This document shows positions 1 to 15,604 of a stretch of 32,145 nt of DNA, piece by piece (positions within the stretch are counted from its first letter, which is position 1; every line of letters begins with the position of its first letter). The notes beneath the pieces are model-generated. The model saw only the letters and a list, made by a program, of their open reading frames with translations, did no database searches and was not told where the DNA came from. The position numbers and the translations under genes are program-made. The stretch is taken from contig JALTLO010000187.1 of assembly GCA_027001995.1 (NCBI GenBank), forward strand, positions 1-32,145, in the 5' to 3' direction. The stretch comes from Planctomycetota bacterium. Its GTDB lineage: Bacteria; Planctomycetota; GCA-002687715; DRQF01.

Positions 1-327
1 TGCATGTACAATGCCGAGAGAAATCACCAGGGGATCGGCAACGAACTTATCGATGCCAAAGAGATGCCCAAAGAGGGCAAGATCGTCCGTGAAAAACGAC
101 TCGGCGGTCTCTTATCCTTCTATCGTTGCGCTACCTGAAACCACTTTCGTCGACGCAATTCTGGACCGTCTTGCGCCCAAGGTCCATCCAAAATAGGAAC
201 GTTGACGAGTTCCGTGCCAGTCACCGAAGCCTTGTCGGCGCAAGCCGAAAAGCCGAGTCGGCCTATCTCCGTCCGCTGACGTTCGCCTGGCCGCAGATTG
301 ACGTCGGCTGACTTTTTGCACGCTACG
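1..327 (+). mobile_element. 3' part and right end of a defective integrase-core (DDE) IS; second copy of 3543-4790, cut by the window edge
   Basis: 1-326 matches 4464-4789 with 3 substitutions. It encodes the transposase tail (YNAERNHQGIGNELI...RLGGLLSFY). Terminal IR tcggctgactttttgcacgctacg at 304-327. Confidence 0.9.
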
Positions 328-509
328 AGCTCCCCGAGTTGGACTCTGTTCCTAAAAGTTTTCGAGACTCGAAAGCAGAGAGCGATATGGTTGCCACTAT
401 CAAACCGGTTGTCTTGCCAGCCATCATCGAATTTCGCGAGGCTAAAACACGGTCTAATTCACCGGATTAGATAAGCAGGAGGCGCAGACCCAATCGTCCG
501 CAACGATGT

Positions 510-2756
510 TTAGTCCTCGATCACAACACGATCTGTCAGCTCAACATCAAAAATGCGGTTTTGCGACTTGAATACGGTATCGTCTGCCGTCTCAGGCACC
601 CACACATTTCTTTCTGTGCCAGCCTCAACGCGGCTCGCCAGCAATTCGCGTCCATTTCGAATTAGATGTACTCCGACAGCTCTCCCTGTTCGATTTACTA
701 CTTTGTGCCATCTTCCAGTCCCTCCAGTCTCAATGTGGCCGTGCTTTCTCTCAATCCAATCTCGAAACACCTTTCTCCGGCCTTTTATCTCCCAGATGGT
801 GCCGGAGAGTTCAACCTCTTTCGGAGCATACAACACAGCGGGCGCACGGTCGTTCGTGATCAATCGCACCATCTCCGCCTTGGCATCTTGAACAGCTTGC
901 AACTCGACATAGAGATTCTCGCCCATTCGCGGAGTTACGTCGATTGCGATCGTACAGATCGATCCAAGGGGGAATTCAACATTCCATCCTTCATCTTGAG
1001 TCCTCTCGATGAGGCCCAAGAGATGGACCATCCTCTGCCCTAACTGGCGGAACTTGACGACGATGGTCGTGTTGACGAGCGGCGGCAGTTCGAAGCGACC
1101 ATCTTCATCAATCTTCTCCGAATGCGTCCAGAATTCCACAAACTGCGGGCGTAAGTCGCTTGGTATGGACCGCCAATTCCGAATGGAAACCTTGCGCTTC
1201 TCATGACGTTGCAACGACTCAACAAAGATCGACTTCGCTTGTCCATTGTTCAGATGAAATCGGCGTACATATTCAACGGCGTCGTCCTTGTTTACTAAGC
1301 GCAACTCGTAGTCGCCACTTCGCAAGCCCTCAAATTCGACTTCGGCCGCGAGAGGACCGGTACGAGCACACTTGGCTCCATTTTTTTGGAACTTGAGAAG
1401 CTGAATCGAGAGTTTGCGTTCTACAGGATCCAGTCCACTATTCACAGTGACTACTCGCAGAGAAGAACCAACTGGCATCGTTTCAATCAGGACTTCTGGT
1501 GGAAGTTGTCCCTTGTGAAGAACAAATCCATATGTATCGCGAGATTCAATTTCAATTTTCCAATCTTCGCCATTCGGATGTCGGGAGGGCATCAAGAATC
1601 TACGACTTGCTCTCAAGGGTCCTAAGGACGCGGCGACGCCTTCGTTTACAACTAATGAGAGCCCGTCAAGGTTAGGCTTTTCCTTGTTCCAAGACTCAAC
1701 GCGAATCACCGAGTATGGCTCCGCTGCTACAAGTGAACTGTCAGTACCCAGGGCAGCCCTGGGTTGCAATGCAATCCGGTCAAACACAAGAGGTAGATAG
1801 AACTCGGCCTTCCCAATGTCCTTTGCCACAAACGCGAACCTTTGCATGGAGTCGAGAGGAATGAGGTTTCTCGATTCTCTTTGATCAATTGGCACCACAA
1901 TCTCTACATAATCTGCTAAAAACCACTCTGGAAAACCCAAAACTTTGAATCGGTGCCTCATGTAATCACGCAAGTCAAATACAATTGGCATGCCTTCATT
2001 TGGTTCATGCGGAATTGAAATGGATTCGATGACGCCGGCCGATCGGTGGCTCACAGCGACTGTCCATGCCCCATCTCTCATGATTCTCAATTCTGCATCG
2101 TGTTCTCCGGCGGTGCGAACCTCAATGAGAGTCCGATCGACAACAAAAGGCGGGTCAGCTCTTCTAAATGCAACAACAGAGATGTCGCCCAAAGCGCATG
2201 AGGACACGATTCGAACAAGCAATGGGAGTTCACCGACCAAGACAATTTGCCCAAGGTCCAACCCACGCGATTCTTCGACTCTTGCTTCTCGATTGATCGA
2301 CTGAAAACCGTCTACCTCAATTTGAATATTGAGTTCTCCATTTCCTGCTGGGAAATGAAATCGCTGGTCAATCGTCCCATCGGAGAAAAGCGATTGTAGC
2401 TTGGATTTTCCTCTCAATTCGACCCGACATCGAACTTCCAGTCCCAAAGGTATTGCTGCTCCGGATTTAGTCTCCAAACCAAAAGACACAACACTCGGGG
2501 AGGCGACAGGAGACTCTCGCCCCCCAATTGGCGCTCGGTCAATAGACGAACCAAAATCACGGTGCACCCGACTCTTGTTTGGGCCAGAAGCATCAGTGAC
2601 CTGATTTGTGACTTCGAGGTCAACGTCGTCGAATTCAGAATCCAAAAGGCGGACTGCCATTGCGACGAAAAGCAGGAGACCTGCTGTGACAAGAAATCCA
2701 AACATGGTGCCGGAATTAGGAGACATCTTCAACGGACTCTCTCTGAAACAACTCAC
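510..2756 (-). CDS. Large membrane-anchored hypothetical protein with carboxypeptidase-regulatory-like beta-sandwich segments
   Basis: 748-aa ORF with an N-terminal hydrophobic helix (FGFLVTAGLLLFVAMAV), a low-complexity linker and beta-rich motifs (FEGLRSGDYELRL, IDEDGRFELPPL). The start may be the ATG at 2726 or 2705. Confidence 0.75.
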   Translation of the reverse strand: MSCFRESPLKMSPNSGTMFGFLVTAGLLLFVAMAVRLLDSEFDDVDLEVTNQVTDASGPNKSRVHRDFGSSIDRAPIGGRESPVASPSVVSFGLETKSGAAIPLGLEVRCRVELRGKSKLQSLFSDGTIDQRFHFPAGNGELNIQIEVDGFQSINREARVEESRGLDLGQIVLVGELPLLVRIVSSCALGDISVVAFRRADPPFVVDRTLIEVRTAGEHDAELRIMRDGAWTVAVSHRSAGVIESISIPHEPNEGMPIVFDLRDYMRHRFKVLGFPEWFLADYVEIVVPIDQRESRNLIPLDSMQRFAFVAKDIGKAEFYLPLVFDRIALQPRAALGTDSSLVAAEPYSVIRVESWNKEKPNLDGLSLVVNEGVAASLGPLRASRRFLMPSRHPNGEDWKIEIESRDTYGFVLHKGQLPPEVLIETMPVGSSLRVVTVNSGLDPVERKLSIQLLKFQKNGAKCARTGPLAAEVEFEGLRSGDYELRLVNKDDAVEYVRRFHLNNGQAKSIFVESLQRHEKRKVSIRNWRSIPSDLRPQFVEFWTHSEKIDEDGRFELPPLVNTTIVVKFRQLGQRMVHLLGLIERTQDEGWNVEFPLGSICTIAIDVTPRMGENLYVELQAVQDAKAEMVRLITNDRAPAVLYAPKEVELSGTIWEIKGRRKVFRDWIERKHGHIETGGTGRWHKVVNRTGRAVGVHLIRNGRELLASRVEAGTERNVWVPETADDTVFKSQNRIFDVELTDRVVIED

Positions 2757-3062
2757 GGACCAATCTCAAGCAAGGTTAGTGATAGTGCCTTAAGTATCGA
2801 CATCTGGACACGGATCGCTTGAATTATAGGGCCGACGGCCATTCGGAGCACATCCGGTTCCTTTCGCATTGGGTTCCGCCCTTAATTTTGGCAACTCTTG
2901 AATATAGGGTCAGATGGGGGCGATTGGAGCCACAAATGGCTGAATTGCGCAGAACGGTACAGCCCAATAAGGCCCTCAGAACATTCGCGGAACCAACGCG
3001 CAACACTGATCCGTTTGCTTCCGGTCTTCGATGGAGAAACCGCTCAGCGGCTCGTTGATCCC

Positions 3063-3084
3063 GGGGGCACGAATTCGTGCTCCC
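3063..3084 (-). terminator. Hairpin downstream of the small secreted protein gene (terminator or stabilising stem-loop)
   Basis: Minus strand gggagcacg-aatt-cgtgccccc, 28 nt after the stop at 3113. No U-tract. Confidence 0.45.
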
Positions 3085-3112
3085 AGAACTACTCTCACTC
3101 TACAAGGGGGCG

Positions 3113-3457
3113 TCAGTATATCCAGCCGGAATGGAATGGCGCATTACTTTGGGTCCAACTCCATTTGTCTCGACCAGTGTCCCAACCGAGTTCGCCACTG
3201 TCGCCGGTATGGGAGGTCCAGCGGCCGGTTATCCCGCCAGGTAAAATAGCATACGTCCCAGAATCACCATTCGTGTTGGTCCAAGTGCCGCTATACGCCC
3301 CTGTCGTGTCATTTGACAATACAATAGTAAACGTCACGGTGGTTGTACCGCCGGTGTAACTGTTCGACTGGGTGAACGAACCGCTTAGTTGGGTCTGCGA
3401 GTACGCCGTGCCTCCAAGCAGTAACAACGCAATAGAGGCAAACATTAGATGTTTCAT
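3113..3457 (-). CDS. Small secreted Thr/Ser/Gly/Trp-rich beta protein (114 aa)
   Basis: Strong RBS (gaaggag) before the ATG at 3457. Signal peptide MKHLMFASIALLLLGGTAYS|Q. The longer ORF-track start at 3592 lies inside the IS. Confidence 0.85.
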   Translation of the reverse strand: MKHLMFASIALLLLGGTAYSQTQLSGSFTQSNSYTGGTTTVTFTIVLSNDTTGAYSGTWTNTNGDSGTYAILPGGITGRWTSHTGDSGELGWDTGRDKWSWTQSNAPFHSGWIY

Positions 3458-3542
3458 TGCAACTCCTTCGGCTCCCAAAGAAAATTCCGTCCCTGATTTG
3501 GTGGGAGCATGTCCCAAGTCATGGAGCGCAACATCAGGCCCC

Positions 3543-4790
3543 CGTAGGGTGCAAAAAGTCAGCCGAGCTGTAATCCCTTGTAGCAGAAACACTTTCGCCC
3601 TACCCTCAGCCCCCCCATGAAGAACGCGCTAACACCGCCCTCTCCTCCTCATCGCGGCCCTCGCTGGCTGGCTGAATCGAGAACAACAGAAGGTTTTCGA
3701 CTACCTCCGTAAAGAGAACCGAGTCCTCAAGGAACAACGCGGGACAAAAAAGATCCGTTTGACTGATACACAACGTCGTCGCCTCGCCGCCAAAGGCTGG
3801 GAAATAGGTCGTCGTTTGCTCGGTCAATACGCAACCATTGTCACGCCCGACACACTGCTGCCCTGGCATCGCAAACTGATCGCGCAGAAATGGGCGAACA
3901 AAGCCGGCAAAGGACGCCATAGCGTCATGAAGAAGATCGAGGATCTCGTCGTCCAAATGGCAAAGGACAATCCCAGCTGGGGCTAGGGATGTATCCAGGG
4001 GGCGCTCAAGAATCTTGGCCACGTCGTCGTGCACAACACCGTCAAACGCATCCTTCAGAATCATGGAATTGAGCCCGCGCCCGTGCGTGGAAGAAAGACC
4101 AGGTGGTCTCAGTTCTTGCGCAACCATTGGTCAACGCTCTCAGCCTCCGATTCTTTCACAACCGAAGTGTGGACGACTAAGGGGCTTGCCACCATCTACA
4201 CGATCTTTGTCATCAACATCGCAACTCAACCCATTCACATCGTTGGTTCGACAGGCCACCCGAACCGCATATTCATGAAACAAGCTGCCCTTGATCTTGG
4301 GGCCTTCGATGATGGATTTCTACGCGGAACGAGATTCCAGCAAGATCGCCAAATTGCAATCCTCACGTTGAAAGATTTGTGAAAACCATCAAAACGGAAT
4401 GCTTGACAAAGATGATTTTCTTCGGAAGGAGATCCCTCAACAAGGCCAACAGGAATTTCGTCATGCATGTACAATGCCGAGAGAAATCACCAGGGGATCG
4501 GCAACGAACTTATCGATGCCAAAGAGATGCCCAGAGAGGGCAAGATCGTCCGTGAAAAACGACTCGGCGGTCTCTTATCCTTCTATCGTTGCGCTACCTG
4601 AAACCACTTTCGTCGACGCAATTCTGGACCGTCTTGCGCCCGAGGTCCATCCAAAATAGGAACGTTGACGAGTTCCGTGCCAGTCACCGAAGCCTTGTCG
4701 GCGCAAGCCGAAAAGCCGAGTCGGCCTATCTCCGTCCGCTGACGTTCGCCTGGCAGCAGATTGACGTCGGCTGACTTTTTGCACGCTACA
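3543..4790 (+). mobile_element. Defective insertion sequence (~1.25 kb) with an integrase-core DDE transposase and 24-bp terminal inverted repeats
   Basis: IRL cgtagggtgcaaaaagtcagccga (3543-3566) vs IRR tcggctgactttttgcacgctaca (4767-4790), 22/24 complementary. No target-site duplication visible. Confidence 0.9.
3617..4601 (+). pseudogene. Integrase-core-domain transposase pseudogene
   Basis: Recognisable pieces: LAGWLNREQQKVFDYLRKENRVL, TPDTLLPWHRKLIA, NPSWG*GCIQGALKNLGH, ASDSFTTEV, PARSPNCNPHVERFVKTIKTECL. Lesions: frameshift near 3640, TAG at 3984-3986, deletion near 4337 removing the DRD segment, +1 G at 4469. Confidence 0.9.
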
Positions 4791-4811
4791 GTCACCATCT
4801 CCTCTGACTTG
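4791..4811 (-). repeat. 21-bp fragment of the ABC permease-like gene (copy of 11209-11229)
   Basis: gtcaccatctcctctgacttg vs gtcgccatctcctctgacttg, 20/21. The difference is synonymous (QVRGDGD). It abuts the IS right end. Confidence 0.7.
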
Positions 4812-4823
4812 GAAAGAGGCAAG

Positions 4824-5201
4824 CTATTTTCGTCGAAGCGCAAGAGACCCCAAGATATTGATGCACGCGAGCGCTCCCAACGAGCCACACAAAACGAGGC
4901 GTTCGGCGCTATCTATGTCCACCAATGGGCCGAAGCATCCACACGGCTCTTGCCAGAACAAAACGGTCCACAAGATGCCGCCAATGGAGAACAGCAAGAG
5001 CGTCAGTGACCCGAACAAGACCAATCCGCGAGCCAAAGCAACGATGACGACAAACTCGAGAATGAGCGAATACAATTGAAGCCTCGAATGCGATTGGAAT
5101 ATCGAGCCATCAACGATGGCAAGGATCTTACCGCAGAATGCAAATAGCAAAATGAGGATGGCGACAATCGTGGCTGGTGTTTTACGCTTATTCGGCTGCA
5201 A
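4824..5201 (-). CDS. MauE/DoxX-like small membrane protein
   Basis: 125 aa with about 4 hydrophobic segments and a PCGCFG motif. The TTG start with a gaggtg RBS overlaps the upstream gene end. Confidence 0.75.
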   Translation of the reverse strand: MQPNKRKTPATIVAILILLFAFCGKILAIVDGSIFQSHSRLQLYSLILEFVVIVALARGLVLFGSLTLLLFSIGGILWTVLFWQEPCGCFGPLVDIDSAERLVLCGSLGALACINILGSLALRRK

Positions 5202-6831
5202 GGAGTTTCACCTCGATAGCCTGAACGTTATTCGCGTCAGGAACATCATTGACTTCGACAGTCTCAAGGAAAGGAAAGAACCCGTCGGCCCGAACTTTGA
5301 TCTCGACAAGACCCACGGGGAGCCAGCGCTCCCTTTCTCTACTCGAGGTCCAGACCCCGGCTTCCCAGAGCCCTCCTTGTCTTAGGCCATAGCTCGCAAG
5401 GCCAAACGGATAAGATAGGTCGTGGACGAACCGGAAGACAACCCGGCGAAGCTCCACGGGAACCTTGAACTCACGTTCAGCGCGTTCGTTTTCTTTGACC
5501 CGGACCCCAAGAGGCTGGTACCTAAGGTTCTTCAAACATCCATTTCCTCGTACCCTGTAGCTGCCAACCGGCAAGACACAATCTCGGCCGAACGGGAATG
5601 GGATTTCAACCTTGTTGCCCTGCTTCCAAGTATACTGCAAATATAGACAGTTTGATCTTAGCTCCTTTCCGCTTGGCATGGTAACCTTCAGGTTGGCTAC
5701 TCCAAATCGGGGGTCCGAAATTGAGGCTGCGTCGAGAGTGCTTAAGGTCATCTGGCTCGGTGGCACCAAGGGTAGAGTAATTTCTCCGGTTCCGCCATCG
5801 CTCAGCAAGAAGTCGACTTTGCACGACGGCCTGTCATTTTGCGAACGTTCTCTTTGTAACCACACCATGACCGTGGCCCCGCTATGCTTCACCTTAAGAA
5901 GCTCTTTTGCGCCCATGAGCTCTGGCAGATGGGTGGACGAAGACGGATAGACGACGAATCCTGTCACGGAAGGGTCTGTTGCCAAGATAGTGGAATTCCT
6001 CGTCGCTGGTGCCTTGATAGCTGCCCCAAGAATCGGTGCCATCTCCAAGACATGGGACACTCCAGGGACCAAGATCGCGGGATTTCTACCGTGATTCACA
6101 CATACAAAATCTTGGGAAGACACTTTATAGCAATACGCGCCTTCAGGAACCCCGTCAATGAAACACTCACCATGTTCATCAGTCAATCCGGAAAAGATCG
6201 GCCTTTTTCCGATTGGATAGCGCAAATCTCCTGTCAAGTCGGAACCTTCAAACTCTCCACTATCCATGGTGAACTGAGACAAGTAGATTCTGACACCGGC
6301 AACCGGGAAACCGCGCAAGTCTCGGGCTTCAATTCTTGTGGGTCGAGCCTTCTTCAGAACCACATCCCATGGACCAAGTCCACGAAACGAAACGGTACGA
6401 CTCAGAAATCCTTTTGCATGGACAGCAACCATGAATCCCCTTTCGAGATCGATTCGAGGAAGCTTCAAATCGACCGTTGCTCGACCTGACGAATCAGTGA
6501 GAACACTGCCGTCTCCGGGGACGCGCTTAACGACTCTCGCCTTCGGATCCGGGAACATAACGAGGGCCCCCGGAACTGAATTCCCCCAATCGTCCACAAT
6601 TCGAATTTCACCCGTGAGAGCTTCTTGCAAGGGAGCCGAAGGGGCAAGAGCCGTTCTGGCTGGCACTCTAGCTGGAATCTCTGCAATCTCTGCTTCAAAA
6701 GGTGCTTGAAGGGCGTCCCCCCTCAGGCTCTCGGGCTCCCCCTCCTGCCCAAGAAAGCGGATGAGCACCCATCCTCCAAAACAAAGCCCAATGACGATCG
6801 AAAATATTCGGCCTGCTTGCTTCCAATCCAT
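5188..6831 (-). CDS. Membrane-anchored protein with carboxypeptidase-regulatory-like domains
   Basis: 547 aa, RBS ggagg, N-terminal TM helix. Motifs IRIVDDWGNSVPGALV...TDSSGRA and ARDLRGFPVAGVRI...TDEHGECFIDGVPEGAY. Confidence 0.85.
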   Translation of the reverse strand: MDWKQAGRIFSIVIGLCFGGWVLIRFLGQEGEPESLRGDALQAPFEAEIAEIPARVPARTALAPSAPLQEALTGEIRIVDDWGNSVPGALVMFPDPKARVVKRVPGDGSVLTDSSGRATVDLKLPRIDLERGFMVAVHAKGFLSRTVSFRGLGPWDVVLKKARPTRIEARDLRGFPVAGVRIYLSQFTMDSGEFEGSDLTGDLRYPIGKRPIFSGLTDEHGECFIDGVPEGAYCYKVSSQDFVCVNHGRNPAILVPGVSHVLEMAPILGAAIKAPATRNSTILATDPSVTGFVVYPSSSTHLPELMGAKELLKVKHSGATVMVWLQRERSQNDRPSCKVDFLLSDGGTGEITLPLVPPSQMTLSTLDAASISDPRFGVANLKVTMPSGKELRSNCLYLQYTWKQGNKVEIPFPFGRDCVLPVGSYRVRGNGCLKNLRYQPLGVRVKENERAEREFKVPVELRRVVFRFVHDLSYPFGLASYGLRQGGLWEAGVWTSSRERERWLPVGLVEIKVRADGFFPFLETVEVNDVPDANNVQAIEVKLLAAE

Positions 6832-7160
6832 TTAAGATCCTCCCCCTCGACGAAATCGCGATCACCATTCACTACGATAGACACGTTATGAACAATAGCA
6901 ACTGATCTGCCACACAGTTCCGGCAGGTTCTTTTCCAATGCACGATGTCAGACAAGATTGAGAATCACAATTGATAACTATAGCAGTGCCAACGACTTTC
7001 GCGCTCCCAGCACAAGGAAGGTCTTGCCCACATGGGCATGAGGCCGTTCCCTTGTCAAAAACGACTGCGAAGCAATCTTGGAAGTTCTTAAAACTCTAAG
7101 TTGTTGGCAATTGGAAAAATTCGGCATCATGCAGGGTACGCCAAACTGGGCAACGCGCGC

Positions 7161-7260
7161 TACGCCCGCACTAGCGGTTGGCTTGCCAAAGGATGCGGAG
7201 CTCATCGGTTTCTAAGTTGTAGCTGGCCAGTTTGTCTTTGTTCCCCAGGAGCAGGGTGCA
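7161..7260 (-). repeat. 100-bp orphan copy of the 3' end of the ABC permease-like gene (direct repeat of 10779-10878)
   Basis: 96/100 identical. It encodes CTLLLGNKDKLASYNLETDELRILWQANR* plus 10 bp of downstream sequence. Three of the 4 differences are synonymous. Confidence 0.95.
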
Positions 7261-7329
7261 ATAGCATTGGCGCCAAGCGTACGTTTCATTGCTCGAAATG
7301 GCGAAGCTGCTTCACGACTAGGCGAATAC

Positions 7330-9897
7330 CTAGTCAAAGTCGAGTGCGACTGTCTTGTTGCTCAGATCAACTGAAGCACGCAGTTGATAGCTCCCCTTCG
7401 AGCCCCTCCCCGTAGAAATAGTCGCCGCAAGTCTTCGAGGAAAAAGAAGTCCTAACTTCGTCTGCTCGGGGACTATCTTCGGTCTGATACGTTTTGCTTG
7501 ATGGTCTCGATCTTGAAAGACAGCCAAAATCGAGCCTCGATTCTCCGCCAACCACTGAGAAACGGCCGCACTCGTGGCAATGTCATAGTCGCCAGCCTCA
7601 GCACAATTGAATGCCTCGTCTTCCGGAGCAAAGTAGTAAGTCAAACCATGGTTCACACGAATCACGACCATGTCGTCTGTGGATAGTTCCAAGCGAGCGG
7701 ATTCAACTTCGCCTGGCTCTATCTTTAGGGAGAGTTCTTTTACCAAGTTCGCGGAGCTACAAACCGAAATGCCGACTTTTTGCGCCGCGCCAAGAAATTG
7801 AAAAGTCTTCAGCTCCTTTGGATCATCCAATGCTATCCGATCCGGGATGCTACTTGACAAACCTTCCCAAACAACGACCCATTCTCTGTCAACCAAGATG
7901 CGAATCTTCCCAACGACATTTGCTTTGGGAACCGTCAGATCAAAAGTCTCTCTGCTTCTGGCAGCAAAGTCGTCGTAAATCTTGACCGATCGCCAATAAC
8001 AATCGACTCGGTCAAACTGGGTGCGCCCAGCGATCTGAATCGTGTGACGATAGTAGTGTGGGACTTCCAGTTCGGCCACATGGTTGCGTTTAAATTGCGC
8101 GCCTACGCCGAATTCGGTTCCGAACTTGTTGCGCAAGCTGATGGAGAACCACGCGTCACGCGTCTTCGGTGAGAACTCGAATTCACTGTCCGCAACTCGA
8201 GACGTCTGTATTGACATAATTCGACCACTCGCTGGAACGATCGTGGCACTTGTAATATCTGAAGAATTGGGCCCCAAAAGTCGGCCTCGCAACTTCATGC
8301 TCTTAGTCAACTCGCATGGCTTCAAGATCATGTCTGAGGCAACTGTAAATCTCGCCTCATAGTCTAAGAACTTAGGCGAACGGACGAGCATGCGGTATGA
8401 ATAGGCACCAAGTAACAATCGAAAGTGCCCAGAGGCAGAGCAACGAACAGTAAGGTCTTTGTAGGTGTGCAGCTTGTTGATCTGAGAACGTTGATCTGCT
8501 AGGCCAACTTCGGCATAGGGAACGGGATTACCGTTTTCATCGAGAACTTCCCCAGATACAGAATAGATCCTGCCAAGGTCGATCGTACGCTCTTCTTGTT
8601 GCTCAACCGGGATATAGTTGCGACCGATCCTCAGTCCGAATTCGACTCCATCGATCTCGTCGGAAAGCGGCAGAATGATGGAAGAATCAAATTCTTCGGA
8701 CCGGAAAGACGCAATCTCAACCCGGACTGAGTTGGGAGACCTGATAGAGGCCACGAGGCTCCAACTCCCATGAACAGTGTCAATATTGGCTCGTTGGAGG
8801 ATCTTCCATTCGATTTCTTTGAACGACTGGAATCGAAGCTCAATCAACTCACTTTGTGCGAAATTACTTTGAAATTCTTCAATCAGACTAGGCGTATCAA
8901 TTGGCAACGCGGCGACAACTCTGTCCAATTCGTTACGAAGCGTAAAGGTCGCGCCAAAAACTCCTGGCACCCCTGTCAAAGTTGCCTTGCCATTGGTAAC
9001 TGGGGCTCGCCACAAGCTGGACTTCAGGTCTCCAATCGTCAATTCGAGTGTTCCACTCCTCGCCGGCTCTCCGTCTAAAATGATCTTGAATCGGGACTTC
9101 AGATCTTGACGTAGAAATAGAATGTGGGCCGTCTTGCCAGGAGGAATCCAAGAACTGTAGGACCCTTGAGCTGACTCGACTCTTAGGAAAGTTGACGAAT
9201 CGCGATTGCGAGAAACGACCAGTTTTCCTCCAAGAACAGGAACATCTCGAATGTCCGTGTTCTTGGCGAAGGAGGCTTCCAACCCTTGCCCTCTCCAACT
9301 TCCCTTACTGCGACGCAGCTGAATTCCGCGGTCCGCGCCATCGAAGCAATCCAGAATAGTCAGTTTGGCGAGACCAGAGAATAAATCACCAGTTGGTCCA
9401 AGAATTGTCAGGCTGAGGGGCGACTTCGTAAGCGACGGAAACTCAATTCTGTATTCTCGCTGATCAGCCTGCAGATTGAAGTCTACAGTCTGAACGTCTC
9501 CCGAATCCAATCTCGTCGCAACAATGGTCAGCTTCTCGTGAGACGCTATGACTCTAAAAAAACCACGCCCCAGTTGTTTGACAGGAACAGCGATTGAATC
9601 TTGAGGGCATTGAGCAAAGAGTTGAGAAGGCAACAGAGCACCATCGGCATTCGAGACTCTCACCACAATATCGAAAACCTGAACACGAGTGGCGATTGTC
9701 GGATTACGAGCAGAGGCTCCTGCAGTTCGTGACACAACACCGTCGTTGTGCTCTATATTCGATGAGTCGATGGCCCTGGCCCCATTCCCCAATTCTAACT
9801 CGACATCTGGTCCTTGCGTGAATTGCCAGAACAGCGCCAACATGATGGCCATAGCCAACATTGCAAGGCAGAACGATTGGATCGAAATATTCTTCAT
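7330..9897 (-). CDS. Large membrane-anchored protein with carboxypeptidase-regulatory-like domains
   Basis: 855 aa, N-terminal TM helix (FCLAMLAMAIMLALFW), motif VSGEVLDENGNPVPYAEV...SASGHFRL. Confidence 0.85.
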   Translation of the reverse strand: MKNISIQSFCLAMLAMAIMLALFWQFTQGPDVELELGNGARAIDSSNIEHNDGVVSRTAGASARNPTIATRVQVFDIVVRVSNADGALLPSQLFAQCPQDSIAVPVKQLGRGFFRVIASHEKLTIVATRLDSGDVQTVDFNLQADQREYRIEFPSLTKSPLSLTILGPTGDLFSGLAKLTILDCFDGADRGIQLRRSKGSWRGQGLEASFAKNTDIRDVPVLGGKLVVSRNRDSSTFLRVESAQGSYSSWIPPGKTAHILFLRQDLKSRFKIILDGEPARSGTLELTIGDLKSSLWRAPVTNGKATLTGVPGVFGATFTLRNELDRVVAALPIDTPSLIEEFQSNFAQSELIELRFQSFKEIEWKILQRANIDTVHGSWSLVASIRSPNSVRVEIASFRSEEFDSSIILPLSDEIDGVEFGLRIGRNYIPVEQQEERTIDLGRIYSVSGEVLDENGNPVPYAEVGLADQRSQINKLHTYKDLTVRCSASGHFRLLLGAYSYRMLVRSPKFLDYEARFTVASDMILKPCELTKSMKLRGRLLGPNSSDITSATIVPASGRIMSIQTSRVADSEFEFSPKTRDAWFSISLRNKFGTEFGVGAQFKRNHVAELEVPHYYRHTIQIAGRTQFDRVDCYWRSVKIYDDFAARSRETFDLTVPKANVVGKIRILVDREWVVVWEGLSSSIPDRIALDDPKELKTFQFLGAAQKVGISVCSSANLVKELSLKIEPGEVESARLELSTDDMVVIRVNHGLTYYFAPEDEAFNCAEAGDYDIATSAAVSQWLAENRGSILAVFQDRDHQAKRIRPKIVPEQTKLGLLFPRRLAATISTGRGSKGSYQLRASVDLSNKTVALDFD

Positions 9898-9910
9898 AGT
9901 GTTCTTGGAG

Positions 9911-9935
9911 GTGAAGGGCCTTTTCGGCCCTTCAC
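9911..9935 (-). terminator. Perfect 10-bp hairpin between the small secreted gene and the large anchored gene
   Basis: gtgaagggcc-ttttc-ggcccttcac. It lies 29 nt after the stop at 9965 and 13 nt before the ATG at 9897. No U-tract on the minus strand. Confidence 0.65.
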
Positions 9936-9964
9936 TCTGTCATGAATTTTTTCTTATAGAGTGC

Positions 9965-10501
9965 CTATCGGTCCCATGAAGAGTCTTTGATATCAAAACT
10001 CGTCACGTCTGCCCCAATCATGCCACCAGTCATGCCGCCGCTCCCAAACAAGTTGTTGGCGCCGGGGGAACCAGAGTCTTTGAAACCAACGACAAGACTG
10101 TCGAACCATTGATCGTGCCAACCTGAACCACAGTACATGGCTCCAAATGGCAATTCAGCCCTCTCCTTTGCCGGATTGTACGTAAAATCGGCTTTCACAA
10201 AATTAGTAATTCCGATTTCAATTCCCGAACCAATTTGGTCATCGCCGGAGAAAGAATCGTAGTCCCACATGTACAAAGGGTTGCTAAGATTGACAGTAAG
10301 TATCGTCGTCATTGCGGGCAAAGCGCACAATGCTTCATAGGAAGCGTGATCCATTCCAAGGAACATTGTCGGTTGCACCTTGGCAACGTTTCCTGACCCA
10401 ATTGAAATAATCCGAGGTTGAACAATAATCACTTGGTTTGATTGGCCAGTTTGACCATAGGCCGCGACACCGAACATGAAGATCATGATATACTTGAGCA
10501 C
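9965..10501 (-). CDS. Small secreted hypothetical protein (178 aa)
   Basis: RBS gaaggag before the GTG start. Signal peptide MLKYIMIFMFGVAAYG|Q. Two Cys. Contains a WDYDSFSGDDQIG segment reminiscent of a C2-like acidic loop. Confidence 0.85.
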   Translation of the reverse strand: MLKYIMIFMFGVAAYGQTGQSNQVIIVQPRIISIGSGNVAKVQPTMFLGMDHASYEALCALPAMTTILTVNLSNPLYMWDYDSFSGDDQIGSGIEIGITNFVKADFTYNPAKERAELPFGAMYCGSGWHDQWFDSLVVGFKDSGSPGANNLFGSGGMTGGMIGADVTSFDIKDSSWDR

Positions 10502-10788
10502 GTTGAATTTCTCCTTCTACTTTTCGCATGACAATTGCCGTCACTGTGAACACCATCAATGCGGATCAATTCCGCACTCAGACGCCCAAGAAATCCGGCA
10601 AGCCTATTTTTGGTTTGGTTGATGGACGCCCTTGCCCACCTCTTCATCCAATGAGCAGCTTGCAAGAGGAGTCAAGAGGAGTCTTAGAATATTTTCGATT
10701 ATACGGCCGTGGCAAGTTTTCCCGAAAAACTAGTTGCTCCAGGCGTGTCCGATTCCTTCGCCCAAAGTTGCAGCGGGGTACGCCCGCA

Positions 10789-12741
10789 CTAGCGGTTGGC
10801 TTGCCAAAGGATGCGGAGCTCATCGGTTTCTAAGTTGTAGCTGGCGAGTTTGTCTTTGTTCCACAGAAGTAGGGTGCACGCACCGATCCATCTGGAATTG
10901 ATGCTACCGAGGCCATAGCGGCCACCGCCGACTAGTCCAAGCTCCCTTAGCTGAGCAATCCTCTGGGGCGCAATGACGTTTTCAAGAGTATCCGTTTGCC
11001 AATAGTTGGCGCTTTGATTATTTGATCGGAGAATCAAGTTGAATCGACCATCTGGGGATCGAGTCGAGGAGAACATTCCATAGGCCCCCCAAAGCCAAAC
11101 TCGATCACTCTCGTCTACTCGAGACTTGAAATTGCCTGTCTCAAGATTGAGTACGCCAACATATTTCTTCTTCGCTTCCCCATCATAGGAGATCATCAGG
11201 TAATTAGGGTCGCCATCTCCTCTGACTTGTTGGATGGGCCATTGATCTTCGGCCACGGTGAAGACGCAACTCATTTGTTTGGTTTCTAAGTTCATGGCCA
11301 AAACACGAGCGCGATCCTCAGCCACATAATAGGCCATGCCATCGCGGGCAATAGGAACATCCATGTTCCTGGTCATCGTTGAGGACCTGATAAAAGCCCC
11401 TGGCAGATCAATGGTAGATTCTTCATGGCTAAACATGTCAACCAGGCGAACAGCGCAGCCCACGGTTTTCCGCCCAGGACGAATCACGTCACCCATGACC
11501 CAATGCCCACGCCAAGGAACAACGCCGACGAAAGGGGGAGGCAGGTATTTCTTGGTCTTCCCTGTAGCCTCATCGAGAACAAAGATATGGTTGAGACCAG
11601 CCCAAGCTTTCAGTTGTCCTTGACGATAGACCTTGCCTTGGGGCACGCGGATTGTGGGGCCTTTCAGTCCACCGGATCTCAGCAGGCCATCTTTCGTTAG
11701 GACTCGGGTGTTCGCCGAATGTGTACGTTCGAAATTGCTCTCAACGAGGCTATGTGCATTGAGATCTGCCAAAGCAATGTCGTCACTTTCAAGACTTCGG
11801 GACAACATCACCATGGCTGGAAATAGAGACAGAATCTCGCCTGACTCAAAGTCGAGAATCGCCGTATGCTTACGAAAGTGACCAACACGTCCTAACTGCA
11901 GAACGATGCGTTTCTGATCGCGAAGAACAAGGGCCTCTTCAAGCACCAAATCCGGAGACGACATGTCGAATGTTTCCCATGCCCGCACCTCCCCTTGAAC
12001 CCAGGTTTGCCCGATAGGGAATGCCATCAGGAGAATCCCTATGGCAATCATCGCAGGGCGCAAAAAGCTGCGACGGTGCAAACGTCCAGCCAGAAAGACA
12101 AGAGCGGCGATGACAAAGAACAAAGGAGACAGCCAGGCTGCTCCTTGCAGCATCCCGGTGAAGAGGGCGTCCTCGCCGACATCATGGTAGGACAACCAGC
12201 TATAATGGAGCCAAATAACGCCAAAGAAATAGCCTACGCCAAGGGTCAAAGTCGCGACCACCGCCCCAGACCCCATGGGCAGGAGTATTGAGAAGAAAGT
12301 CGCAAAAGACAGCAAGGCCAGTTGCATCTGGACAAAGCGCAAGATGCTGAATTGCTCCAACTCGTTGGCAACAGAAAGTGGCAGCCAAACCTCACGACAA
12401 AGAAGTTCAACACCCACAACACAAAAGGAGACAAGAGATGCCAAAGCAAACAGAACCACGAACTTGGCTATCAAAACCGAACGGGCTTCGATACCATAGG
12501 ACGCCATGGTCCGCCGGCCCTTGCCACGCCATTCACGCCCGAATATCTGCCACGCTAAGAGTATGTGAATGATGGATGTCAAAGCCCAAGGGGCGGAGAC
12601 AAAAGCCTCTTCAAAGCTGAGGGAAATCCATGATGAGAGTGTCCAGCGAGCCAAGCCCATGACGAGCAAAGCGATGGCTGTGGCGACGATCACCAAACCT
12701 CTGGTGGCCCGCCACTCTCTTAAGATGAGTTGCTTCATCAT
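10789..12741 (-). CDS. ABC-2-type permease-like protein with a long C-terminal extracytoplasmic beta-rich (propeller-like) domain
   Basis: LILREWRA at the N-terminus, FGREW...VLIAKF motif, about 6-7 TM segments, then about 390 aa of beta-rich sequence. ATGA overlap with the upstream stop and a ggggag RBS place the start at 12741. Confidence 0.8.
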   Translation of the reverse strand: MMKQLILREWRATRGLVIVATAIALLVMGLARWTLSSWISLSFEEAFVSAPWALTSIIHILLAWQIFGREWRGKGRRTMASYGIEARSVLIAKFVVLFALASLVSFCVVGVELLCREVWLPLSVANELEQFSILRFVQMQLALLSFATFFSILLPMGSGAVVATLTLGVGYFFGVIWLHYSWLSYHDVGEDALFTGMLQGAAWLSPLFFVIAALVFLAGRLHRRSFLRPAMIAIGILLMAFPIGQTWVQGEVRAWETFDMSSPDLVLEEALVLRDQKRIVLQLGRVGHFRKHTAILDFESGEILSLFPAMVMLSRSLESDDIALADLNAHSLVESNFERTHSANTRVLTKDGLLRSGGLKGPTIRVPQGKVYRQGQLKAWAGLNHIFVLDEATGKTKKYLPPPFVGVVPWRGHWVMGDVIRPGRKTVGCAVRLVDMFSHEESTIDLPGAFIRSSTMTRNMDVPIARDGMAYYVAEDRARVLAMNLETKQMSCVFTVAEDQWPIQQVRGDGDPNYLMISYDGEAKKKYVGVLNLETGNFKSRVDESDRVWLWGAYGMFSSTRSPDGRFNLILRSNNQSANYWQTDTLENVIAPQRIAQLRELGLVGGGRYGLGSINSRWIGACTLLLWNKDKLASYNLETDELRILWQANR

Positions 12742-14726
12742 GGCGTGGTACTCCCCTTTAGTTGCCAAAGGACTTCAATTTTCTTGGTGCTTAGGTCTAA
12801 GACGCGGATGTCTCGTTTGCCTGGGAGGAAGACGCGCTTAGTCGTGGCGTCGTATTGAGAAGACAAATTTAAAACCTCCCCCCATGGGAGGCGACTCAAG
12901 ACGACATTGGTTTTCGTATTGCGAATGGTCACTTTCATTTCGCCGTCTTTTTTGTCCGTGTCGACGAAGAACTCATCGACACCAAAGGGCCAGAGCCTAA
13001 TCCATGGTTGAACATCAGCCCCGTCTTGGGCTTGCAACAGCCCCGTATCGGTGTTCAGTATTCCCCACGATTCTCTTCGGCCCACCTGCCGCTTCTTCCC
13101 ATGACTACGGGCGCCATAGACACACAAAATGTAGCCGCCTTGAGGTGAAACTCGGATGGTGTCCAAAGGGAACTGTTCTTGGGTGGCTTCAAACACAAGG
13201 GACACAGCTCGGGTCGTAAGATCGAGCTTCATGATGCGCTGGCGATCTTGGTGAATGTAGTAGACCGTTCCATCTCCTTGGAAGCCAATCGTTTGATCGA
13301 GAAGACTGTTCTGCCCCATGGCAATATCTGGGATGACAATACGCTCTTCCCCCGATTCAAAGATGGACCACAACTCCACCCCCATTTCAAGTATGCCCGG
13401 GTCTAATTGCCATTTCTTGGACACCACCCAGTACTTCTGCCAAGTGCGGATGGAGACGTTGCTATTGACCGGGTATTCCCGGGATGAGACCACACGGTTC
13501 TTCAACTTATCGAAAACAACGACTTTGCCTTTATTCCCAACCACGTAGGACAGAAGATTGCCTTGCCTCACGATCACATCTGGAGAAGCCGCCATGTGCT
13601 CTGCGGGAGAAGGAGCTTGGGGCTGGCTGATTGATCTTCCGTCTTGAGCAACCACCATGTCTAATTGAACTATTTGGGGTTCGGTCTTCTTTCTTCGTGA
13701 TGACGATCTTCCTCCGAGAGGAGATGAACTGGTATCAACCAGAACAAAGCGCTCGCGACCCACATCATAACCTCGCGCCCGTGCCTGCTGCTGAAAGGAG
13801 AGTTCTTCTCCACTTTGAGCATCGAGCAACAAGACGTGAGGGTTGGGAAGGCCCGGTCGGAACAAAGTGACATACAGGCGACCCCCGCCGCCCTTCTGAA
13901 AGCGAACCCCAGCAATGCTCAAGTCTTCATCGTCCAGCGATATTGTCTCGTGACGATGAACCATCCAAGCAGATACCCCTCCCACGGGGATCAAGCACAA
14001 AAGAAACATCACGGTAGCGACCAAGACCGAACGTAAGTGCTTGCGACGATGCAAATGCCCACCGATAAAAATGGCAAGAGACACAAATAGGAGGACGATT
14101 CCCAAAACCGGAGACGCAGCGAAGGCGATGGGTGTCAAGAGATCGTGATGAATGTCGCGATAGGCCAACCAATGATCAAAACTCAAAACAGTCAGAATGG
14201 GATAGCATATACTCAGCACCAAGGAGAGTGCGACAGCACCAGCTCCAGAAGGCACAAGACAACCTGTGCAAATCCCCAGACCGAAAATGAACACGGAATA
14301 CTGGATCAGATAGAGAGTTGTCCAGTTGTTGCCGAATGCGCCGAGCTTTTTGGGCTCAAGAAGATTGATCAAGACCTCGTTGCCCCCAATCAAGATGGCC
14401 ATCGACAAGACGCAAAGAAGAGTAGCCATGATCAGTTTGGCAGAGAAGACTTGGGCACGGCTAGCACTCAATCTCTTCAGCCAACGCTGACCACCCCCTG
14501 TCCATTCTCGCCCGAAAATGTGTTGGGTCACCATAAGCATGATGAACCAACCGAAGAACCACGGGACAGGGCGAGCCCCTTCCGTTGACAAAGCGGTAGC
14601 GAACCTCCAATTGGCGGCGATAGAAAGCGCTAAGAGGCCCAGGGCAGCTGGCAAAACGAAACAGAGAAGACGAAAGGCAGCTCGCCTTTCTCGGATGATG
14701 AGTTGTTTCAATGAGTCCAAAGTCAC
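12738..14726 (-). CDS. ABC-2-type permease-like protein with a C-terminal beta-rich domain (paralog of 10789-12741)
   Basis: LIIRERRA and FGREW...QVFSAKL motifs, same TM pattern. GHLHRR vs GRLHRR and IEVLWQ vs LRILWQ are shared with its neighbour. GTGA coupling to the ATPase gene. Confidence 0.8.
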   Translation of the reverse strand: MTLDSLKQLIIRERRAAFRLLCFVLPAALGLLALSIAANWRFATALSTEGARPVPWFFGWFIMLMVTQHIFGREWTGGGQRWLKRLSASRAQVFSAKLIMATLLCVLSMAILIGGNEVLINLLEPKKLGAFGNNWTTLYLIQYSVFIFGLGICTGCLVPSGAGAVALSLVLSICYPILTVLSFDHWLAYRDIHHDLLTPIAFAASPVLGIVLLFVSLAIFIGGHLHRRKHLRSVLVATVMFLLCLIPVGGVSAWMVHRHETISLDDEDLSIAGVRFQKGGGGRLYVTLFRPGLPNPHVLLLDAQSGEELSFQQQARARGYDVGRERFVLVDTSSSPLGGRSSSRRKKTEPQIVQLDMVVAQDGRSISQPQAPSPAEHMAASPDVIVRQGNLLSYVVGNKGKVVVFDKLKNRVVSSREYPVNSNVSIRTWQKYWVVSKKWQLDPGILEMGVELWSIFESGEERIVIPDIAMGQNSLLDQTIGFQGDGTVYYIHQDRQRIMKLDLTTRAVSLVFEATQEQFPLDTIRVSPQGGYILCVYGARSHGKKRQVGRRESWGILNTDTGLLQAQDGADVQPWIRLWPFGVDEFFVDTDKKDGEMKVTIRNTKTNVVLSRLPWGEVLNLSSQYDATTKRVFLPGKRDIRVLDLSTKKIEVLWQLKGSTTP

Positions 14727-15604
14727 AGCTTGCGCCCTCCGGTGGCTGCGAGGAATGCTTCCTTCAGGTCAACGGGCGGCAAAGGTGATAACTCTTCCAC
14801 CCCAGGAATGTCGATAGCTTCGATATCGACGTCCCCAAACCAGGTGAGTTTCACTTCCCGGCCTAAGCGCTCAATGGAGGTGGGCCCTTCAATGAGGGTG
14901 TGATCAAAATCTTCTGCAACTCGACCTAAGAACTGATGGGTACGGGCTCGCAGGTCATCGAGTTCGGCGGCAAAAGACACGGCACCCTGATGAAGAACAA
15001 CGACGCGATCTGCCACGCGCTCGATCTCATCGAGGTCGTGACTCGCTATGATGATGGCGCGATCGCTGTCGACCTGTCGCACGACTTCGGCCAAGATTTC
15101 ATCTCGGATGCCACAATCGAGCCCATCGAAAGGCTCGTCCAAAACCAAAAGTTTCGGGGCATGGGCGAGTGCCACCACCAAGGCAAGTTTGGTGCGCATA
15201 CCACGAGAAAGGTGCTTCACTCTCTTGCGGCGATCTAAGTCAAAATTTTTGCACAACCTATCGGTCTCAGACCAACTCCATGAGTGATACATAGAGCCAA
15301 AGAAAGTCAGAATCGATTCGACCTTCTCATGAGGATCAAACCAAGGATCGGCCTCAACGTAGCCAAGATGTTGGCGAACCTCTGGGCCTTTCTTCCATGG
15401 GTTCATACCCAAGACTTCGATCTCGCCGCCGTTGGGTGGAAGAAGACCAATGATGCAGTCCAACAACGTTGACTTGCCGGCGCCATTGCGGCCCAGAAGT
15501 GCAGTGACACTTCCAGCAGGCACATGGATGTCGATGTCATTCAACGCTCGATGGCGACCATGGTTGAGCACAAGCTTGTGGATAGCGACGTGGTTTTCAG
15601 TCAT
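14723..15604 (-). CDS. ABC transporter ATP-binding protein (YtrB-like)
   Basis: Walker A GRNGAGKST, signature LSRGM, Walker B LLVLDEP, H-loop ASH. The ATG at 15604 overlaps the GntR stop. Confidence 0.95.
   Translation of the reverse strand: MTENHVAIHKLVLNHGRHRALNDIDIHVPAGSVTALLGRNGAGKSTLLDCIIGLLPPNGGEIEVLGMNPWKKGPEVRQHLGYVEADPWFDPHEKVESILTFFGSMYHSWSWSETDRLCKNFDLDRRKRVKHLSRGMRTKLALVVALAHAPKLLVLDEPFDGLDCGIRDEILAEVVRQVDSDRAIIIASHDLDEIERVADRVVVLHQGAVSFAAELDDLRARTHQFLGRVAEDFDHTLIEGPTSIERLGREVKLTWFGDVDIEAIDIPGVEELSPLPPVDLKEAFLAATGGRKL

What the first reader, a model, noticed from the sequence alone, without database searches (positions are those of the whole stretch)
327..12741. Array of variable secreted-protein cassettes stacked behind one anchor gene, separated by orphan pieces of that gene
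Seen, reading the minus strand: full permease gene, [178 aa + 855 aa], 100-bp orphan 3' end of the permease, [547 aa + MauE-like], 21-bp permease fragment cut by an IS, [114 aa + 748 aa]. Both junction fragments have the same orientation as the gene. They differ from it almost only at synonymous sites, as expected for alleles from related strains. Known: rhs/cdi orphan arrays are built this way, with cassettes preceded by fragments of the upstream gene. Inference: the 3' end of this ABC operon is a recombination anchor through which polymorphic surface or secreted modules are acquired and stacked. I do not recognise this as a described system.
Basis: partly seen in the sequence, partly recalled or inferred. 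Interest (0 to 1): 0.82.

Follow-up and report, generated by a model that had tools for sequence, protein, structure and literature searches.

The report
Gene blocks stacked behind a transporter
In an uncultured planctomycete, two blocks of predicted surface-protein genes sit behind an ABC-transporter gene, each ending in a leftover copy of that gene's tail; they were likely added one after another from DNA of related strains, and because unrelated genes elsewhere in the genome carry the same scar this is likely a general route of gene gain rather than a dedicated system.

Summary
The anatomy is real. Behind the second permease of a GntR-ABC-permease-permease operon lie [178+855 aa], a 106-bp copy of the permease 3' end (94%), [547 aa + MauE-like], then a 21-bp permease piece abutting an IS. 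A contig from an independent run (X5) carries the same junction with at least 397 bp of permease, so the IS did truncate a longer second orphan. The third block [114+748 aa] lies between two IS copies, and no listed contig bridges that IS. The reading as a dedicated rhs-like system is not supported. The orphans include the stop codon and are not fused to the cassettes. The four family members with the operon have no such cassettes behind it. Both cassette types occur elsewhere in the genome. Four unrelated genes in this genome show the same gene-insert-orphan layout, two with empty sites in relatives. Most likely mechanism: linear DNA from a related strain (permease end plus downstream genes) is ligated to a circle and integrates by single crossover, as shown in E. 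coli (PMC3240628). Closest known: additive flexible islands and rhs/cdi orphan arrays. The scan's earlier notes held no such finding.

The parts
15601..16005 (-). GntR-family regulator, 134 aa, first gene of the operon
   Evidence: Pfam PF00392 51.3 bits over cut-off 27; best NCBIfam hit PmtR 53.9 bits, below cut-off 200
14723..15604 (-). ABC ATPase, 293 aa
   Evidence: Pfam ABC_tran; best NCBIfam hit PmtA 149.8 bits, below cut-off 350
12738..14726 (-). Permease 1, 662 aa: six hydrophobic segments plus a soluble C-terminal domain
   Evidence: 25% identical to permease 2
10789..12768 (-). Permease 2 (anchor gene), 650-659 aa: six hydrophobic segments plus a C-terminal domain that is likely a beta-propeller
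   Evidence: ABC2_membrane_4 in 3 of 10 homologues, best E 5.6e-4; weak profile hits to PpgL (E 0.005) and Atg18 (E 0.045) (that these are propellers is recalled)
10773..10878 (-). Gene-side copy of repeat 1 (last 30 codons plus 16 bp)
10554..10729 (-). Non-coding leader of cassette 1, shared with a [125+788 aa] gene pair on contig C86
   Evidence: 74% over 177 bp, E 4e-25; weaker copies upstream of genes on C43, C14, C75, C40
9965..10501 (-). Cassette 1, small 178-aa protein with a signal-peptide-like N-terminus (by eye)
   Evidence: no Pfam, NCBIfam or PADLOC family; cluster of one; Atlas hits only hypothetical proteins; single-sequence model pLDDT 35, unusable
7330..9897 (-). Cassette 1, 855-aa protein with N-terminal membrane anchor and a CarboxypepD_reg domain
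   Evidence: PF13620 32.8 bits, cut-off 32.3; Atlas neighbours are CarboxypepD_reg proteins mostly of Planctomycetota; only itself at E<=1e-10 among 1.84 billion representatives
7155..7260 (-). Orphan 1: 106-bp copy of the permease 3' end including the stop codon
   Evidence: junction inside X1 contig 7198-8879
5188..6831 (-). Cassette 2, 547-aa protein with N-terminal membrane anchor, weak CarboxypepD_reg hit
   Evidence: PF13620 E 0.002, below cut-off; no homologue among 7999 scored candidates; about 99% pieces in X4 and 92-95% pieces in X5
4824..5201 (-). Cassette 2, MauE-like membrane protein, 125 aa, CGC motif
   Evidence: 31% identity to the Pfam-positive MauE on C141
4791..4811 (-). Orphan 2 remnant: first 21 bp of a permease copy starting at 11229, truncated by the IS
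   Evidence: 20/21; unique in genome; at least 397-bp untruncated form in X5
11209..11229 (-). Gene-side segment matching the orphan 2 remnant
3543..4790 (.). Degenerate multi-copy insertion sequence with terminal inverted repeats and an 82-bp internal deletion at 4332 relative to the copy on C120
   Evidence: high read depth
3113..3457 (-). IS-flanked block, small 114-aa protein with a signal-peptide-like N-terminus (by eye)
   Evidence: no family
510..2756 (-). IS-flanked block, 738-748-aa protein with N-terminal membrane anchor
   Evidence: no family; 99% pieces in X4
1..327 (.). Right end of a second copy of the same IS (contig end)
   Evidence: 99% identical to 4464-4789

Best explanation
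Two gene blocks lie behind the permease, each followed by a diverged copy of part of the permease end, and they were likely added by successive integrase-free insertions of DNA from related strains. Inferred steps: a linear fragment from a related strain, starting inside the permease and running through that strain's downstream genes, enters the cell. It is trimmed and ligated to a circle. It integrates by one RecA crossover in the shared permease end. The result is intact gene, new cassette, partial permease copy, old downstream DNA. The partial copy starts wherever the fragment began (11229 in the first event, 10878 in the second) and ends where donor and recipient stop being homologous (16 bp after the stop in orphan 1). 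Cassette 2 came first, then cassette 1 was added in front of it. An IS later landed 21 bp into orphan 2 and the rest was deleted, so the third block is not shown to be part of the stack. The permease is likely just the conserved piece nearest to a variable region. The cargo is a lineage-wide class of small secreted plus large membrane-anchored Ig-like (CarboxypepD_reg) proteins, with or without MauE, and is predicted to be expressed from its own leaders.
For: Shown: two same-orientation permease copies with different start points. Untruncated orphan 2 at the identical junction in an independent study's run. The orphan-2 difference at 11212 also stands in an X4 contig that bridges 11229 and in both X5 contigs there. 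4 of 5 coding differences are synonymous, against 21% expected for random changes (P about 0.008 without transition bias). No shared motif at the junctions of five such loci, and no microhomology to the gene upstream of either junction. Same gene-insert-orphan layout at 5 of 13 loci with two-copy direct repeats (C99, C108, C123, C141, this one). Empty sites with a single gene end in 3 of 5 relatives for C99 and 4 of 5 for C108. At C123 the orphan is followed by 95-97% remnants of the same cassette, as expected if a sister allele was added in front. In X4 the listed cassette 2 and 3 pieces are 98-100% identical to the window, while the listed operon pieces are 91-95%, so operon and cassettes have mixed histories. 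Known: in E. coli, linear DNA with one-sided homology to the lacZ 3' end gave partial duplications in 56 of 60 clones, 109-950 bp in the 14 sequenced. The authors ascribe this to trimming, ligation and single crossover (PMC3240628, passages). ComEC and DprA are present (weak, since 10-11 of 14 controls also have them).
Against: No donor molecule, circle or cassette-free joint was seen: no joint skipping 7261-10878. At the four other loci the differing codons are 6 synonymous and 12 not, which does not favour the allele reading there over decay of a local duplicate. The E. coli events are rare (about 6e-9 per recipient) and artificial. No Ku was found to aid end joining (genome 92% complete). 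106 bp is short for a RecA crossover (own knowledge). The data cannot separate this route from HFIR.
Confidence: 0.5

Rival explanations
1. Homology-facilitated illegitimate recombination (HFIR): a linear donor pairs through a long permease or operon anchor, and its foreign end is joined directly to the recipient inside the anchor. The orphan is then the recipient's displaced gene end. Same outcome, no circle.
For: Proposed for V. cholerae T6SS immunity arrays (PMC5361080, passages). The operon allele is 91-95% to X4 while cassettes 2 and 3 are about 99%, which fits a long donor anchor arriving with cassette 1. Variable breakpoints.
Against: In the E. coli test, HFIR was expected to give deletions and made up 4 of 60 clones (PMC3240628). 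X4 may simply hold two populations.
Confidence: 0.2
2. A dedicated polymorphic system: the GntR-ABC-permease operon works with the small secreted and membrane-anchored proteins (export, sensing or immunity), and selection stacks and swaps cassettes at its 3' end, as with rhs/cdi orphans.
For: Two independent events at one gene, both with cargo of the same broad class. Cassette-type genes also lie upstream of the operon (546 aa, 153 aa, MauE). Best NCBIfam hits are the peptide-export PmtR and PmtA models, below cut-off. The permease 3' third is more variable between strains than its last 31 residues.
Against: No such cassettes or orphans behind the operon in 4 of 4 family genomes that have it (only 1.9 kb downstream available for G002). 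No permease-end orphan in 108 loci (1.97 Mb) around more distant ABC ATPases. Same cassette types at C86 and C141, away from the operon. Same scar at unrelated genes. No toxin or defence family in the cargo. Recombination with an orphan would delete cassettes, not create a new protein.
Confidence: 0.12
3. Local duplication: the repeats arose inside one chromosome (break repair or IS activity) when foreign DNA was inserted, and diverged afterwards.
For: IS-rich region. Non-synonymous-rich differences at the four other loci.
Against: Synonymous bias here. The orphan-2 variant is a standing allele in other strains. Orphan 2 in X5 has no gaps in 397 bp despite 8% divergence. Duplications of 106-441 bp are far beyond IS target duplications (own knowledge).
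Confidence: 0.08
4. Site-specific integrative islets that target the permease 3' end, moved in trans by a tyrosine recombinase (attL/attR).
For: Same geometry as tRNA-targeted additive islands (PMC4898812, passages). A tyrosine recombinase lies at 20742-21767.
Against: Two breakpoints 351 bp apart, no junction motif, no integrase in either cassette, and five unrelated target genes.
Confidence: 0.06
5. Strain-mixing assembly artefact.
For: Short-read MAG; related alleles exist in these habitats. The 67-bp identical core collapses into one contig in X1. The IS is not bridged.
Against: Junction 1 lies inside one X1 contig, depth is even, and junction 2 recurs in X4 and X5 from other studies. It remains open only for the link to the third block.
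Confidence: 0.03

Closest known systems
Single-crossover integration of trimmed, recircularised linear DNA with one-sided homology (E. coli lacZ test, PMC3240628; passages read)
   Same: Foreign DNA flanked by a variable-length partial duplication of a gene's 3' end (109-950 bp there; 106 and at least 397, likely 441+ bp here), no integrase, no fixed breakpoint.
   Different: There a laboratory plasmid and identical homology; here natural, 92-94% diverged copies, repeated twice at one gene and seen at four more genes.
rhs C-terminal displacement and cdi/rhs orphan arrays (PMC2935791, PMC3150448; passages read)
   Same: Intact gene followed by direct, variable-length fragments of itself that separate acquired modules. 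IS disruption of orphans. The circle-plus-crossover model was proposed for rhs.
   Different: There the fragment is conserved core lying upstream of, and in frame with, a variable toxin tip that lacks a start codon, followed by an immunity gene. Here the fragment is the gene's own end with its stop, and the cargo is complete, unrelated genes with their own starts and leaders.
Additive flexible genomic islands (Alteromonas, PMC4898812; passages read)
   Same: [quoted passage not shown]
   Different: There the targets are mostly tRNA or tmRNA genes (6 of 8) and the hotspots are described as site-directed. Here the target is a protein-coding gene with two breakpoints and no integrase in the cassettes.
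T6SS effector-immunity arrays built by proposed HFIR in Vibrio cholerae (PMC5361080; passages read)
   Same: Upstream conserved DNA as anchor; successive additions push older modules downstream.
   Different: There old effectors are lost and immunity genes are kept. Here whole older cassettes are kept and no effector or immunity family is found.
YtrA/PmtR-type GntR + ABC exporter operons (family role recalled; NCBIfam)
   Same: Short GntR regulator, ABC ATPase and permeases in one overlapping run.
   Different: Scores are below the PmtR and PmtA cut-offs. Two 650-660 aa permeases with a large soluble C-terminal domain; found in 4 of 8 other genomes of this family and in 0 of 32 sampled genomes outside it.

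Membership tests
rhs/cdi orphan arrays | Direct, variable-length fragments of the upstream intact gene lie downstream of it | tested here: met
   106 bp from 10878; at least 397 bp from 11229 in X5
rhs/cdi orphan arrays | Fragment is conserved core upstream of and in frame with a variable C-terminal tip lacking a start codon | tested here: not met
   Orphan 1 ends in the permease stop codon; the next gene starts 324 bp later with its own ATG
rhs/cdi orphan arrays | Modules are toxin-immunity pairs | tested here: inconclusive
   No toxin, immunity or defence family in Pfam, NCBIfam or PADLOC; the small proteins have no known family, so activity cannot be excluded
rhs/cdi orphan arrays | Orphan-to-gene recombination loads a new module in other strains | tested here: inconclusive
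   No joint skipping a cassette in five runs of low-depth contigs
Additive flexible genomic island | Repeat of part of the target gene downstream of each added cassette | tested here: met
Additive flexible genomic island | Cassette content differs between close relatives at the same locus | tested here: inconclusive
   The sister's 42,770-bp contig holds the four operon proteins but no cluster member of eight flanking proteins; its DNA could not be read, so the operon may lie at a contig end. X3, X4 and X5 contigs diverge at 7067 or 4824
Additive flexible genomic island | Site-directed insertion, usually at tRNA or tmRNA genes | tested here: not met
   Protein-coding target, two breakpoints, no junction motif
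Integrase-dependent islands / integrons | Integrase within or beside the array and one constant att site | tested here: not met
   No recombinase in 327-12768. The nearest, 8 kb upstream of the permease, scores 48 bits against an integron-integrase cut-off of 265. attC sites were not searched with a model
One-sided-homology additive integration (circle plus single crossover, or HFIR) | Partial target duplication of variable length without sequence specificity | tested here: met
   54-307 bp at four other genes, 106 and at least 397 bp here; no motif
One-sided-homology additive integration (circle plus single crossover, or HFIR) | The two copies come from different strains | tested here: inconclusive
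   Supported here (4 of 5 synonymous; variant shared with other strains' genes); not at the other four loci (6 synonymous, 12 not)
One-sided-homology additive integration (circle plus single crossover, or HFIR) | RecA dependence and a circular or linear intermediate | not testable with these tools
   Uncultured organism; only assembled contigs available
Pmt (PSM export) / YtrA-type operon | PmtR and PmtA equivalog scores above cut-off | tested here: not met
   53.9 of 200 and 149.8 of 350 bits; general GntR and ABC_tran domains met

The most novel reading that the evidence does not exclude
The GntR-ABC-double-permease operon and the small secreted plus membrane-anchored Ig-like (and MauE) cassettes form one surface-interaction system of this hydrothermal planctomycete lineage. 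Cassettes travel between sister populations as permease-tagged circles excised between gene and orphan, and stack at the operon's 3' end: an rhs-like reservoir built from whole genes and anchored on a transporter, with no integrase.
Probability: 0.12. Interest if true: 0.72.

Novelty: new variant of a known kind. Interest (0 to 1): 0.36.

Why it matters
How bacteria gain genes without integrases or transposases is mostly argued from laboratory tests. This locus records two successive gains at one protein-coding gene. One junction is confirmed in an independent population, and four more single events are visible in the same genome, two with empty sites in relatives. That gives a simple signature (diverged partial copy of a gene end, 0.7-3.6 kb downstream, no integrase) that can be counted across genomes to ask how common this route is. 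It also warns that rhs-like orphan anatomy does not by itself mean a dedicated polymorphic system. The cargo is a poorly characterised class of planctomycete surface proteins. No function was shown, so interest is moderate.

Tried and rejected
(1) Absence of cover: X4 and X5 contigs do not cover the 855/178 cassette while covering parts of cassette 2 and the permease. Depth is low and no contig joins across, so this is not used as evidence. (2) About 40 bases of X5 cover near 7220-7260, inferred from bin depths, might be a permease allele carrying the orphan-1 variants. The record was not listed; unresolved. (3) A weak match of a G001 downstream ORF to permease 1 (E 0.001) was checked as a possible orphan. 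It lies opposite a real gene with a 77% orthologue on C76; rejected. (4) A longer, diverged orphan 1 upstream of 7260: no similarity above shuffles (p 0.46); rejected. (5) Enrichment of such scars in this genome. Same tile scan: 3 clear loci plus one paralogue remnant in 3.52 Mb of G000 (176 tiles), 0 in 1.6 Mb of G002 (80 tiles), 1 IS-type repeat in 0.4 Mb of G005 (20 tiles). Not significant (about 1.4 expected in G002). (6) DNA of the 89% sister genome was not obtained: metagenome scans returned nothing for the permease and only ATPases of 38% identity or less; the genome scan returned G001 and G002 as best hits. (7) Structure: the 178-aa model is unusable (pLDDT 35); the permease job had not finished; no fold search was run. 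(8) Promoter and terminator scan: counts at shuffle level (7 vs 10.3; 23 vs 18.4), not used. (9) Literature: searches found no paper on a permease-anchored array or on planctomycete CarboxypepD/MauE cassettes in the listings seen. Most subscription journals are not covered. The two PNAS HFIR papers were not held and are known to me only as citations in other papers. No supplements were read; they could bear on how often HFIR yields duplications. (10) No SignalP-type tool was run; the hydropathy scan found no segment above threshold in the 178- and 114-aa proteins, so 'secreted' for them is by eye.
Full report
Setting. The window is the whole of contig C187 of a 5.2-Mb, 204-contig assembly, 92% complete. 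The closest genus-level relative is titled Planctomycetota. Four of the five runs that hold the stretch are labelled hydrothermal vent metagenome. On the minus strand, 16005-10789 is a run of overlapping genes: GntR, ABC ATPase, and two 650-660 aa permeases with six hydrophobic segments and a soluble C-terminal domain.

The observation. Downstream of permease 2 come [178+855 aa], a 106-bp copy of the permease end (7155-7260 against 10773-10878, 94%), [547 aa + 125 aa MauE-like], a 21-bp permease piece (4791-4811 against 11209-11229, 20/21), a degenerate IS (3543-4790), [114+748 aa] and the end of a second IS copy. Of the five coding differences, four are synonymous; random changes would give 21% (P about 0.008 without transition bias). 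The 21-mer is the only such match in the genome outside the gene and orphan 1.

Reads. In X1, which may be the source sample, one contig spans junction 1, depth is 11-15.6 on the listed contigs, and the 67-bp identical core is one contig at 34. In X5, from another study, a 414-letter contig lies on permease 10833-11229 with 30 differences and no gaps. Behind 11229 it continues with the MauE stop and spacer (16 of 17 letters; the odd base is read the same way in X1 and X4). Another X5 contig bridges 11229 as intact gene. So orphan 2 was at least 397 bp and the IS removed the rest. An X4 contig also covers base 4812 with 35 letters to its end. The single orphan-2 difference (11212) stands in the X4 contig that bridges 11229, so it is a standing allele. 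Of the listed differences, X4 has 13 synonymous and 12 other codons and X5 has 8 and 5 (only 27 listed positions in the range were classed, 85 further rows of the table were not shown). One X5 MauE allele continues into other DNA after its stop, and X3 and X4 contigs leave the window sequence beyond 7067: the cassette borders vary between strains. In X4, listed cassette 2 and 3 pieces are 98-100% identical to the window and listed operon pieces 91-95%; this may reflect exchange or two populations. No listed contig bridges the IS and no joint skips a cassette.

Relatives. The operon is found in 4 of 8 other family genomes and in none of 32 sampled genomes outside the family with the permease query. 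In G001, G002, G005 and G006 (21-37% permease identity) it has no cassette or permease repeat behind it (8.8, 1.9, over 10 and 7.7 kb of downstream DNA). Its neighbours there map to different contigs of this genome, so the operon itself moves. A sister protein at 89% (P0002) sits on a 42,770-bp contig that also holds cluster members of GntR, the ATPase and permease 1, but of none of eight flanking proteins. The 547- and 855-aa proteins have no close homologue in larger searches. That contig's DNA could not be read. Around 108 loci of more distant ABC ATPases (1.97 Mb; loci under 8 kb dropped from 160) there is no permease-end orphan.

The same scar elsewhere. A scan of 2531 long ORFs gave 4 hits, and a two-copy repeat scan gave 17 pairs at 13 loci. 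Five loci have the layout gene, insert, partial copy of the gene end: this one, C99 (82 bp, 1.8-kb insert), C108 (307 bp, PilZ gene, 0.75 kb), C123 (85 bp, AcrB-like gene by my recognition, 3.5 kb) and C141 (54 bp, DUF4943 gene, 1.6 kb). Relatives show the empty site with one gene end at C99 (3 of 5) and C108 (4 of 5). At C123 the orphan is followed by 95-97% remnants of the same cassette. The junctions share no motif. Against my reading, differing codons at these four loci are 6 synonymous and 12 not, and a tile scan did not show that this genome has more such scars than relatives.

The cargo. The large proteins have an N-terminal hydrophobic segment, and two of the three have CarboxypepD_reg hits (one over cut-off). 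The Atlas places the 855-aa protein among CarboxypepD_reg proteins mostly of Planctomycetota. No toxin, immunity or defence family was found. The leader of cassette 1 is 74% identical over 177 bp to the leader of a [125+788 aa] pair on C86, and C141 carries a [542 aa CarboxypepD_reg + MauE] pair. Both cassette types therefore exist independently of the permease.

Mechanism. Shown: the layout, two different breakpoints, IS truncation, allele-like differences here, and repetition at unrelated genes with empty sites. Inferred: donor DNA from a related strain, circularisation, one crossover, and the order (cassette 2, then cassette 1, then the IS). In E. coli, linear DNA with homology to one gene end gave partial duplications in 56 of 60 clones, 109-950 bp in 14 sequenced, ascribed to trimming, ligation and single crossover; 4 of 60 were HFIR (PMC3240628, passages). 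A circle-plus-crossover model was also proposed for rhs (PMC2935791, passages), and HFIR for Vibrio immunity arrays (PMC5361080, passages). ComEC and DprA are present and Ku was not found. I give 0.5 to the circle route, 0.2 to HFIR, 0.12 to a dedicated system, 0.08 to local duplication, 0.06 to site-specific islets and 0.03 to artefact.

Comparison. It works like the growth of rhs/cdi orphan arrays and additive flexible islands, but fails a defining feature of each. The orphan is not core fused to a start-less toxin tip (PMC3150448, passages), and the target is not a fixed tRNA-type site (PMC4898812, passages). PMC2884548 (passages) reports that 10-18% of small variable segments are flanked by direct repeats, mostly under 30 bp; the repeats here are longer and diverged.

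Verdict. Observation confirmed; interpretation partly supported. A well-documented natural case of stacked, integrase-free gene addition at a protein-coding gene: a new variant of a known kind, interest 0.36.

Noticed in passing
window 4812: The window has G on the + strand where all X1 and X4 contig depth reads C: likely a consensus error in the assembly, right at junction 2.
   Followed up: partly
window 16406-20610: Cassette-type genes also lie upstream of the operon: 546-aa CarboxypepD_reg protein, 153-aa Gly-rich protein with hydrophobic N-terminus, a MauE gene (PF07291) and a 225-aa membrane-anchored protein; the 546- and 225-aa proteins are clusters of one.
   Followed up: partly
window 21963-25856: A 1297-aa ORF fuses a ParA-like ATPase (AAA_31, residues 2-205) to a roughly 1000-aa region that stands as separate genes on C9, C35 and C68 (44-49% identity); possibly an accidental fusion by deletion.
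   Followed up: no
window 25823-30015: Two large predicted secreted proteins (741 and 656 aa) belong to a family with about 30 paralogues in this genome.
   Followed up: no
window 16112-16142, 30303-30385, 30642-32099: A 29-31 bp motif, inverted near an IS1380-type transposase (PF13701), is scattered through the genome; likely the IS1380 end noted earlier by the scan.
   Followed up: partly
window 10554-10729; G000 C86:2642-2806; weaker on C43, C14, C75, C40: A conserved non-coding leader upstream of several small or secreted-type genes; could be a promoter family or an RNA element. Not folded or searched in Rfam.
   Followed up: partly
window 10866-10990 (permease 2): X4 and X5 each hold a second permease allele too diverged here to be laid at 80% identity, next to a conserved last 31 residues: a hypervariable block in the C-terminal domain.
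   Followed up: partly
G000 C123:655-4785 (L178): Second stacked case: gene end, cassette, orphan end, then a deleted 95-97% copy of the same cassette.
   Followed up: partly
G000 C23:14581-14937, C103:5307-7927, C193:80386-85007, C146:16335-26967, C11:6488-6823: Further diverged direct repeats or deleted paralogue remnants flanking inserts of secreted-type genes.
   Followed up: partly
L013:220-6421 (G005 C36): In G005 three tandem paralogous FG-GAP-like secreted-protein genes (label by my recognition) with 73-83% identical C-terminal parts lie directly upstream of the operon.
   Followed up: no
window 1-327 and 3543-4790: Multi-copy IS with an integrase-core-like transposase (label recalled) and about 24-bp inverted ends; 13 exact matches to an 18-base end motif in the genome, copies 85-95% alike. 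Family not assigned.
   Followed up: partly
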